A DNA stretch of 64,000 nt from Ignavibacteriota bacterium (GTDB lineage Bacteria > Bacteroidota > Ignavibacteria > Palsa-1295): contig CAWBEI010000004.1 in NCBI GenBank assembly GCA_963787835.1, positions 288,001 to 352,000 of the forward strand. Reading direction: 5' to 3'. The translations under genes and the position numbers were made by a program. The notes below the pieces were generated by a model. The model saw only the letters and a program-made list of their open reading frames with translations. It did not search any database and had not been told where the DNA came from. Positions 18,890-25,303 of the stretch are shown one piece after another (positions within the stretch are counted from its first letter, which is position 1; the number at the start of each line of letters is the position of its first letter).

Positions 18890-21800
18890 ATGAAAACAAT
18901 CCAGCGCATTCTTCTGGCGGGGGTTCTTGCTCTTGCCACGATCTTGCTTGGTTCGCAGGCTGCTTTGGCGCAGCAAGCACCGTCCATCACGCCGGCAACA
19001 CCGGCTACGCCTCCGGGCGCAACCACCGACGTGCCGCGGACTTTAAGCTACCAAGGTATCCTTCAGACTAGTGACGGCAAACCCGTCAATGCGCTGGAGC
19101 AGATGACCATCCAACTCTTCACCGATTCGGCGGGTACACAGCTTCTATGGGAAGATGTGTTCACTGTTAATGTGCAGAATGGGGTATTCAACCTTCTGCT
19201 CGGATCGCAAAAGCCCTTACCGGACGCCCAACAATTTGGCGGCGCACTCTGGATCGGGGTGAACATCGGGGATTCCGAACGGTCACAGATCTTTACACCG
19301 CTCACGGCCTCGCCGTATGCCCTTACCGTTCCCAATAACTCGATCACGGCAGAAAAAATGGGAACAGATTACGTGGGTTCGATCTCGTTGAACGGCCAAA
19401 AGATCACCCTTCGGGGCGGCGATCTGAATATTATCACCGATGGAACCCTTCAGGCAACCTATGTTCCTACAACGAATGCCCTGCTCCTGAGCGCAACGGG
19501 TAGCGGCGGAAGCGGGAATACCACTCAAAGTAATTACTGGGGCGATTCTCCATACCCGATGAATTATCTGGGAGATATTCCATATAATGATCAAAACGAT
19601 AATGCGCAGTCACTGATCTGCAATACCTCGACAACCAAGGGGTTCCTTTGCGAAACGGGCACTGGTACCAATGGAAATGCCCCGCAATGGTCGTTGATCT
19701 GCGGAAGCGATCTCCCGCCGCTCGATAGTTGCACCGGTACCGTTCACGTTACTAACGGCGGTACGGGTTGCACCAGCTATTCGACCGGCGATCTCCTGTA
19801 TTGCTCTTCTGCAAACTGTCTTTCCAAACGCACCATCGGTTCGGCGGGACAAATACTTTCCTGCCAGGGTGGCATTCCGACGTGGCACACGCTCTGTGGG
19901 AGTGATCTTCCTGTTTTAGATAGCTGCAAAGGCACGGTTCATACAGGTAATGGCGGTACGGGATGCACAACCTATAATACTGGAGATATCCTTTATTGTT
20001 CAGGTACGAACGTGCTTTCAAAGCTTGGCATCGGCACTTGCGGTCAGGTTCTCACAGCAGGATGTAGTGGAGTTCCAACTTGGACGACCCCTACGACCGG
20101 TACTGTAACAAGCATTACGATCTCAGCGGGAACGTCCGGGTTGACCATCAACAGCGGAACGAGTGCTTCGGTCACCTCCAGCGGCACCCTTACCATTGGT
20201 GGAACCCTTTCGATCGCAAATGGCGGAACAGGTGCGACCACCGCGACCGCGGCGATCACCAACCTTCTTCCCTCACAAACAGGGAATTCCGGCAAAGTGT
20301 TAGAGACCAACGGCAGCGGCACTCTATCATGGGCAACAGCACCTACGGGACCACAAGGCCCAACGGGAGCCACTGGTGCAACGGGTGCTACCGGCCCACA
20401 AGGTCCTGCTGGCCCAACTGGTGCGACAGGTGCAACCGGTGCTACCGGCCCACAAGGTCCTGCTGGCACGAATGGTACCAATGGAACGAATGGTGCCACG
20501 TGGTGGAGCGGAACGAGTGCTCCGGCGTCGGGCACCGGCAACATCGGCGACTACTATTTCGAAACCTCGAATGGCTACGTCTATCAGAAGACGAGCAGCG
20601 GATGGGGAACGAACATCGCAAATCTTACGGGTCCAACAGGAGCTACGGGCGCAACAGGTGCTACGGGTCCACAGGGTCCAACTGGCCCAACAGGTGCGAC
20701 AGGAGCAACCGGTGCCACTGGCCCACAAGGTCCAACCGGAGCGACGGGCGCAACCGGTGCTACTGGCCCACAAGGTCCTACTGGCGCTACGGGAGCAACC
20801 GGCGCACAGGGAACTGCAGGTACGAATGGGCTAACGTGGTTCACGGGAACCAGCGCGCCATCGACCAGTACCGGAGCTGTCAACGATCTTTATTTTGAGT
20901 CCTCAAATGGATATGTGTACCAAAAGACGGGTTCCACGACCTGGACGGAGATCGCGAATATCACCGGCCCAACCGGTGCTACTGGAGCAACGGGTGCTAC
21001 TGGCGCTACCGGTGCTACTGGCGCAACGGGAGCCACTGGTGCTACGGGTCCACAAGGTCCGCAGGGTGTGGCTGGCACGAATGGTGCTACGGGTGCGACC
21101 GGCCCACAAGGTCCTACGGGAGCGACGGGTGCAACTGGTGCGACAGGCCCACAAGGCCCGACCGGTGCTACGGGCGCGTCCGGCACAAATGGTGCTACGT
21201 GGTGGACCGGAACTGGTACACCATCATCCAGTACTGGATCCAACAATGATTTTTATCTCGCAACCTCGACAGGTGAAGTATATGAAAAGATCTCCGGAAC
21301 TTGGTCCGCGATCGCGAATATCACAGGCCCAACTGGTGCAACGGGAGCTACCGGCGCGACGGGAGCCACTGGTGCGATTGGCGCAACCGGTCCTCAAGGA
21401 CCGCAGGGTGTAGCTGGTACGAATGGAGCTACCGGCGCAACAGGAGCCACCGGTCCACAAGGGCCGCAGGGGGTAGCTGGTACAAACGGAGCTACCGGAG
21501 CAACGGGTCCGCAAGGTGCTACAGGCGCAACTGGTGCCACGGGAGCAGCCGGCTCGAATGGTGCAACGTGGTGGTCGGGAACCGGTACTCCGTCATCGAG
21601 TACGGGTTCGAATAATGACTATTATTTAGCAACCTCGACGGGCGAAGTGTATGAAAAGGTATCCGGAAGCTGGTCAGCGATTGCAAATATCACTGGCCCA
21701 ACAGGAGCTACTGGTGCAACGGGTGCTACTGGCGCAACCGGTCCGCAAGGGCCGCAGGGTGTTGCTGGTGCGACTGGGGCAACAGGCGCAACGGGACTGA

Positions 21801-24800: not shown

Positions 24801-25303
24801 TCGAGTCCTTTGGAACGAACACGGATGACAACTTAGTGACCGCGAATTCCAATGGCGATCTTAGCGTGCGCTCGGCTACGAGCCTGCTCGGTTCGCTTAC
24901 GGCATCCAACGGCGTGACTCGTTCCAGCGACAACTTCCAACTTGGAGGTTCGTTGACGGGTTCGACGACCATCGCGCTCTCTGGATACAACGTTGCATTC
25001 AGCGGTACGGGAAATGTCGGCATTGGCAAGACTTCGCCGCAACAACCACTTGATGTCGCTGGTAACCTCCAGTTCTCTGGCGCGATCATGCCGAATTCCA
25101 GTGCAGGCACCGCCGGTCAGATGCTGGTTTCGAATGGTGCGAATTCTGCACCAACCTGGGCAACTCCACGGAACAACTGGGTTTCCGTTCCGACGTCATC
25201 GACTGCAAACGGCAATCCGGGCGATGAGGCTTATGACTCCAATTATCTCTATATTTGCGTATCGGCAAATACGTGGGAGCGAGTAGCGTTATCTACCTGG
25301 TAA
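18890..25303 (+). CDS. Giant chimeric trimeric fibre/adhesin (tail-fibre repeats, collagen, YadA-like head repeats), 2137 aa
   Basis: Signal peptide from ATG 18890; LSYQG...ASPYAL N-domain; NGGTG fibre repeats; Gly-X-Y collagen at about 20348-22912; 14-aa ASGxYSTAxGxxTx repeats at about 23660-24570; GNVGIGTxxP repeats. Confidence 0.9.

What the first reader, a model, noticed from the sequence alone, without database searches (positions are those of the whole stretch)
18890..25303. 2137-aa chimeric fibre with no recognisable export or chaperone domain
Seen, in order: Sec signal; an LSYQG...GVFNLLLG...ASPYAL N-domain; phage-like NGGTG repeats; seven collagen blocks; VGIGTxxP repeats; about 20 YadA-head-like 14-mers; and a phage-type C-terminal module ([37 protein letters not shown]). 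There is no T9SS CTD (unlike four other proteins in this window), no autotransporter barrel and no S74 chaperone. It is monocistronic with its own promoter and terminator and has no phage genes nearby. Recollection to verify: the YQG N-domain resembles that of the Bdellovibrio mosaic adhesive trimer fibres. Inference: a domesticated long surface fibre for cell or prey contact, anchored through the N-domain by an unknown route.
Basis: partly seen in the sequence, partly recalled or inferred. Interest (0 to 1): 0.75.

Follow-up and report, generated by a model that had tools for sequence, protein, structure and literature searches.

The report
MAT fibre with shared secretion adaptor
This gene encodes a very long collagen-containing fibre protein of the known Bdellovibrio "MAT" adhesin type, one of 11 in a genome that has no pilus or type II export pore, and a single small secretion-tagged protein encoded elsewhere in the genome likely docks all of them, which would explain how such fibres are exported and moored.

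Summary
The 2137-aa fibre is real as described. Its N-domain is the base domain of Bdellovibrio MAT fibres (profile match 98.5%; below NCBIfam's Bdellovibrio cut-off). The genome has 11 such genes and the domain occurs in about 69,000 protein clusters. MATs without S74, and collagen-type Bacteroidota MATs, are already published, so the fibre is a large member of a known family, not a lone phage remnant.

The lead is its export. The genome has a full T9SS but no secretin, pilus ATPase, autotransporter anchor or CsgG. A ~50-residue module fused to a T9SS tag sits beside MAT genes across the phylum (19 of 20 loci picked by the module alone, mostly one family). This genome has one unlinked copy for 11 fibres; 23 of 24 family genomes have 1-2 copies for 3-27 fibres. 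I infer a shared adaptor that binds the fibre base and exports and/or anchors it (about 0.6). Binding is untested: no complex prediction was obtained. Earlier AI notes of this scan proposed the same adaptor on other DNA; the in-trans, one-for-many arrangement is what this window adds. Prey contact is not supported.

The parts
18658..18686 (+). sigma-70-like promoter match (10 of 12); weak, function not shown
18890..25303 (+). MAT-type chimeric fibre gene, 2137 aa, no S74, no T9SS CTD, no anchor barrel
18890..18970 (+). Sec-type signal peptide (residues 1-27, read from the sequence; cleavage site inferred)
19025..19360 (+). MAT N-terminal base domain (residues 46-157), predicted Ig-like beta-sandwich; proposed docking site for the adaptor
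19619..20344 (+). Cys-rich neck with three NGGTG phage-fibre-type repeats (residues 244-485)
20348..22915 (+). seven collagen blocks (201 G-X-Y triplets, about 170 nm if triple-helical) with six ~48-aa spacer knobs
22922..23569 (+). beta-rich segment with VGIG-type loops (residues 1345-1560)
23666..24589 (+). about 22 YadA-head-like 14-mers (left-handed beta-roll expected)
25181..25300 (+). 40-aa phage-tail-type C-terminal tip module, also ending other MAT fibres
25338..25363 (+). intrinsic terminator-like hairpin (11 pairs, T run)

Best explanation
The gene encodes a MAT-family fibre (signal peptide, MAT base domain, collagen shaft, YadA-like roll, phage-type tip) that likely trimerises and is likely exported and/or moored through the type IX secretion system by a small CTD-tagged adaptor encoded elsewhere in the genome. 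Shown: architecture; homology of the base domain to Bdellovibrio MATs; 11 paralogues; a complete T9SS (SprA, PorU, PorV) and no detected secretin, pilus ATPase, autotransporter anchor or CsgG; one gene (G000:C2:1206821-1207348, minus; 175 aa) made of a signal peptide, a ~50-aa beta-strand module and a type A CTD; the same module beside MAT genes in many other Bacteroidota. Inferred: Sec delivers both proteins to the periplasm; three fibre chains zip up; the adaptor module binds the base domain; its CTD leads the complex through SprA (or it captures the base at the surface); PorU removes the CTD and links the ~55-aa module to the surface, leaving a fibre of roughly 200-250 nm with its variable tip outward, serving adhesion to surfaces or cells. 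One adaptor would serve all 11 fibres as a shared socket.
For: MAT homology. Trimeric, surface-exposed, N-proximal topology and an unidentified surface partner are stated for MATs in PMC10769870. Export inventory: SprA, PorU, PorV, at least 150 CTD matches; none for secretin, T2SSE, YadA anchor, CsgG; TpsB family one hit below cut-off; secretin in 0 of 24 family genomes that all carry 3-27 MAT matches. Adaptor: adjacent, same strand, in 33 of 40 MAT loci (31 of them built the profile, so circular) and in 19 of 20 loci chosen by the module alone in genomes where the first MAT search had been negative; in the 20th both genes lie in pieces 1.3 kb apart. One copy in this genome, 1-2 copies in 23 of 24 family genomes. 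92 of the 100 listed database hits to the module carry a T9SS CTD family. Bdellovibrio has lipoproteins ending in a look-alike strand module directly upstream of 3 of 17 MATs in one strain and upstream of a MAT in 5 of 18 family loci.
Against: No physical or predicted binding was obtained. The adaptor is not linked to this gene or, by the profile, to any of the 11 paralogues. 18 of the 20 blind-test loci are from one family, so they are about two independent cases. Of 17 loci picked by MAT alone, only 3 pass the strict adaptor cut-off, 9 a lenient one (85, 86), and 20 of 58 MAT-positive genomes had no adaptor hit. Homology of the Bdellovibrio lipoprotein module to the Bacteroidota module is not established (HHalign 2.9%; cross-scoring 35 of 91 and 11 of 17 against 79 of 910 and 25 of 170 shuffled). 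Gene pairing cannot separate export from anchoring or chaperoning. I found no paper showing co-export of an untagged protein by T9SS. Surface exposure and expression were not tested for this protein.
Confidence: 0.6

Rival explanations
1. The adaptor is only a surface anchor or assembly cap; the fibre crosses the outer membrane by another route (an unrecognised beta-barrel, BAM/TAM, or vesicles) and meets the adaptor outside.
For: A 2137-aa trimer is a large passenger; Bdellovibrio displays MATs without a T9SS (established knowledge), and its candidate partner is a lipoprotein, which suits an anchor role. One sub-threshold TpsB-like hit exists.
Against: No secretin, pilus ATPase, CsgG or YadA anchor detected; no outer-membrane barrel recurred beside the MAT loci inspected, though only immediate neighbours were read.
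Confidence: 0.2
2. The MAT base domain is itself a non-canonical T9SS signal (an N-terminal CTD mimic); the small neighbour is a co-regulated cargo.
For: The predicted base domain is an Ig-like sandwich; a T9SS CTD (8QB1) is among the top matches, Z 6.3, rmsd 3.2, 74 aligned.
Against: That Z is within the background of many unrelated sandwiches (best 7.2); no CTD family hit; the domain is conserved in Bdellovibrio, which lacks T9SS (established knowledge); it does not explain why one specific module, out of 150 or more CTD proteins, accompanies MAT genes.
Confidence: 0.07
3. The fibre is not displayed on the cell: it stays periplasmic or is shed in vesicles, and the gene pairing reflects co-transfer only.
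For: No direct localisation data; some MATs are deposited in a vesicle in Bdellovibrio (PMC10769870).
Against: A ~170-nm collagen shaft plus adhesin-type rolls; variable tips and presence/absence at this locus; the adaptor is kept as an unlinked gene in 23 of 24 family genomes, which co-transfer does not explain.
Confidence: 0.1
4. A stranded prophage tail-fibre gene.
For: Tip, spacers and NGGTG repeats match phage tail families.
Against: Sec leader; base domain has no PHROG hit; no phage genes nearby; 11 paralogues with the same base; orthologues at the same site in 4 of 12 congeners.
Confidence: 0.02

Closest known systems
MAT (mosaic adhesive trimer) fibres of Bdellovibrio bacteriovorus, NS74 subgroup (Bd2133, Bd1334, Bd2439; PMC10769870; NCBIfam NF053851)
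   Same: Signal peptide followed by the homologous beta-rich base domain; mosaic phage-like shaft; VGIG-type loop motifs; variable tip; multigene family with S74 and non-S74 members in one genome (one paralogue has PF13884). The paper's Table S3 lists FCB-group MATs, one of them collagen-like.
   Different: Base domain lacks the ~20-aa Cys insertion and scores 27 bits against a 60-bit cut-off; longer than any HD100 MAT (max 1959 aa); seven collagen blocks and a YadA-like roll; host has T9SS and no detected pili or T2SS, so the pilus link the paper raises cannot apply; a T9SS-tagged candidate adaptor.
Trimeric autotransporter adhesins (YadA, BpaC)
   Same: 14-residue head repeats (PF05658; 7O23 E 2e-25); trimeric fibre expected.
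   Different: No C-terminal anchor barrel in the protein or the genome; polarity reversed, base at the N-end.
Phage tail fibres with collagen segments
   Same: Tip, spacer and NGGTG modules match PHROG tail families.
   Different: Chromosomal, Sec leader, MAT base domain with no PHROG hit, no phage context.
T9SS cargo proteins with type A CTD
   Same: The candidate adaptor has a CTD above cut-off (TIGR04183, 38 bits).
   Different: Its mature part is only ~55 aa with no Pfam, NCBIfam or PHROG family (80, 117, 118); the fibre itself has no CTD.

Membership tests
MAT fibre superfamily | conserved ~130-aa beta-rich domain right after the signal peptide | tested here: met
   HHalign 98.5%, E 3.8e-15, 103 columns against 17 Bdellovibrio MAT N-domains; NF053851 E 2.8e-6 (117); all-beta model pLDDT 87 (88)
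MAT fibre superfamily | mosaic phage-like shaft with variable C-terminal tip | tested here: met
   orthologues at the same site differ in length and tip
MAT fibre superfamily | homotrimer along the whole length | not tested
   inferred from collagen and YadA repeats; no multimer prediction obtained
MAT fibre superfamily | surface exposure and ligand binding at the tip | not testable with these tools
   needs experiment
Bdellovibrio MAT subfamily model NF053851 | score at or above 60 bits | tested here: not met
   27.2 bits for the isolated domain; a Bdellovibrio domain scores 207.8 (117)
S74-type MAT | C-terminal S74 chaperone with SDxxxK | tested here: not met
   no PF13884 in this protein; present in paralogue L002 (143)
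Trimeric autotransporter adhesin | C-terminal YadA anchor barrel | tested here: not met
T9SS substrate | type A or B CTD on the fibre | tested here: not met
T9SS substrate | base domain has a CTD-like fold | tested here: inconclusive
   8QB1 Z 6.3, rmsd 3.2, 74 aligned, tied with unrelated Ig-like sandwiches
Prophage tail fibre | phage gene context and no export signal | tested here: not met

The most novel reading that the evidence does not exclude
MAT base domain plus ~50-aa strand module form a general plug-and-socket display system. The socket is fused to whatever surface tag a lineage has (T9SS CTD in Bacteroidota, lipid in Bdellovibrio). In this family one socket gene carries a whole repertoire of untagged trimeric fibres through the T9SS in trans, which would be piggy-back export by T9SS and the missing MAT anchor.
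Probability: 0.4. Interest if true: 0.85.

Novelty: new variant of a known kind. Interest (0 to 1): 0.58.

Why it matters
The MAT paper leaves the surface partner of the N-domain unidentified (PMC10769870, Discussion), and the domain occurs in about 69,000 protein clusters with no Pfam family. A named 175-aa candidate makes that question testable by one deletion or one pull-down. Lineages like this one, with many fibres, one adaptor and no secretin, give the cleanest prediction: losing one gene should remove every fibre from the surface. If true, T9SS cargo lists built on CTDs miss a large class of appendages, and the pair is a modular display tool.

Tried and rejected
PDB sequence search with the base-domain profile gave only weak cadherin hits (E>=0.001); Pfam gave nothing. 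Structure search of the base model against 48,161 chains: best Z 7.2, none at 8 or more; no close solved relative was listed, which does not show the fold is new. A primer from the MAT paper found no HD100 locus; other named Bdellovibrio genomes were used instead. One Bdellovibrio MAT gave no PDB hit at 1e-10; a second hit five MAT tip sequences. The window's C-terminal 793 aa hit no solved MAT tip at E<=0.01. The Bacteroidota adaptor profile does not find convincing hits in 5 Bdellovibrio genomes (best E 0.08). No natural fusion of base domain and module among 275 stored proteins or the loci scanned. The 147-aa CTD protein next to paralogue L004:12943-13944 scored at background with the module profile (E 35), so I do not count it as an adaptor. 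Pilus/T2SS anchoring, autotransport, curli-type export and prophage origin were rejected as above. Literature searches listed no paper naming a MAT anchor or T9SS piggy-backing; passages read in PMC10994853 and PMC6247017 did not bear on it. The library lacks most subscription papers, and supplementary file 2 of PMC10769870 was not readable.

Full report
Observation. Pfam finds only collagen and YadA-head repeats, NCBIfam no sorting domain. The tip and the six inter-collagen spacers match phage tail families, the 14-mers match BpaC. A strong terminator follows; the promoter match is weak. The 45 other window ORFs scanned are housekeeping or unannotated, none phage. Two, not four, window proteins showed a T9SS CTD at my thresholds.

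Family. An iterated profile of residues 45-165 finds 11 genes in the genome, each with a leader, this domain and a different body and tip; one ends in an S74 chaperone. The profile hits 24 of 24 family genomes with 3-27 matches, 34 of 41 relatives in all, 58 of 251 phylum genomes and 68,938 protein clusters at E<=0.001. To test the recalled MAT link I reached named Bdellovibrio genomes through a published 16S primer. The profile hit 5 of 5, with 6-17 matches each. In strain s4 the 17 hits are leader-bearing proteins of 520-1390 aa, 11 of 17 ending in SDxxxK; one matches five solved MAT tips, another matched none at 1e-10. Profile against profile gives 98.5%, E 3.8e-15, over 103 columns. NF053851 (Bdello_MAT_N) scores the domain 27 bits, below its cut-off of 60. 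Caulton et al. (PMC10769870; passages, the Discussion and supplement parts 4-5 read) define MATs by this domain, count 8 of 21 without S74, list FCB-group members including a collagen-like one, and leave the surface partner unidentified; a 2026 review (PMC13689555, passages) adds nothing on it. The base model (pLDDT 87) is an Ig-like sandwich with no close solved match (best Z 7.2). So the fibre is a long non-S74 MAT.

Locus history. Of 12 congeners fetched at the flanking peptidase gene, 4 carry a collagen fibre at this site (49 to at least 107 triplets against 201 here; two tip types; one copy broken in frame, one cut by its contig end), 6 have the two flanking genes directly adjacent, and 2 have other upstream genes. 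The gene is an accessory, length- and tip-variable insert, as expected of a diversified adhesin (inference).

Export inventory. The genome (98% complete) has SprA, PorU, PorV and at least 150 CTD matches, which places it among T9SS-bearing Bacteroidota (inference). It has no match to secretin, T2SS/pilus ATPase, YadA anchor or CsgG, and one sub-threshold TpsB-family hit. Secretin was found in 0 of 24 family genomes but 10 of 16 other genomes of the class. The pilus link raised for Bdellovibrio therefore cannot be general.

Candidate adaptor. Reading neighbours of 40 MAT loci from other families showed a same-strand gene with a leader, a ~50-aa module and usually a T9SS CTD; the module has no Pfam, NCBIfam or PHROG family. 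In the 251-genome sample the module profile hit 60 genomes; by my count have both, 20 MAT only, 22 module only, 171 neither. I fetched 20 of the 22 module-only loci: 19 have a MAT gene within 500 bases, and in the 20th both genes lie in pieces 1.3 kb apart; 18 of the 20 are one family. Of 17 loci chosen by MAT alone (15 of the 20 MAT-only genomes), 3 pass a strict and 9 a lenient module cut-off (part was cut from view). Among the 100 listed of 104 database hits, 92 carry a CTD family; some are the proteins used to build the profile; others carry a dockerin or look non-Bacteroidota. This genome has exactly one copy, G000:C2:1206821-1207348, linked to no fibre, and 23 of 24 family genomes have 1-2 copies. 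After CTD removal by PorU (established T9SS knowledge) only about 55 residues would remain, a likely socket.

Bdellovibrio. Three of the 17 s4 MATs have directly upstream a lipoprotein ending in a similar strand pattern. One of them finds 18 loci in 16 of 41 family genomes, 5 with a MAT directly downstream, two of these being the query and a near-identical strain. Homology to the Bacteroidota module is weak: HHalign 2.9%, no direct genome hits, cross-scores above shuffled controls. I treat it as a lead.

Mechanism and limits. Best reading (0.6): adaptor binds the base domain and exports and/or moors the trimer through the T9SS; one adaptor serves all 11 fibres. Family membership itself I put at about 0.93. 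Prey contact has no support here beyond the Bdellovibrio precedent, given how widespread the domain is. My searches listed no paper on a MAT anchor. I formed the adaptor idea; later look-ups showed that earlier unchecked AI notes of this scan proposed it on other genomes from adjacent gene pairs. They are not independent evidence. The addition here is the unlinked, one-for-many arrangement in a family without secretins.

Noticed in passing
L010:5235-11028 (G000:C2): A T9SS-CTD protein followed by two CTD-less fibre-like proteins that begin with a different conserved N-domain (VGIGT-type); relatives of them recur in congeners. Possibly a second tagged-partner-plus-fibre system.
   Followed up: partly
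L011:4249-17449, L012:187-14824, L007:1993-2883: Clusters of large leader-bearing fibre-like proteins with a third kind of N-terminus and no MAT domain or CTD seen; export route unexplained.
   Followed up: no
L008:4150-17486 (G000:C4:370974-383486, minus): A 4171-aa MAT paralogue with long near-identical repeats whose frame appears to shift near the end, the tip lying in the next frame.
   Followed up: no
L204:4144-9612: A MAT fibre whose C-terminus looks like a T9SS CTD by eye although an adaptor gene precedes it.
   Followed up: no
proteins P0002, P0003, P0005, P0006, P0010, P0090: Proteins with two or three tandem MAT base domains and non-fibre bodies: the domain is not limited to fibres.
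   Followed up: no
window 61721-62876: nadA (quinolinate synthase) split over two frames; pseudogene or assembly error.
   Followed up: no
window 30547-31866: Clp ATPase N-terminal half only (Clp_N plus one AAA domain, 439 aa).
   Followed up: no
window 12997-16726: Tandem family of leader-bearing proteins without Pfam match (two scanned), some copies split into two ORFs.
   Followed up: no
window 16846-17483: DUF2442 and DUF4160 gene pair, a common toxin-antitoxin-like pair (recalled).
   Followed up: no
window 17743-18531: Unannotated lipoprotein that sits directly upstream of the M1 peptidase in congeners lacking the fibre; no family hit.
   Followed up: partly
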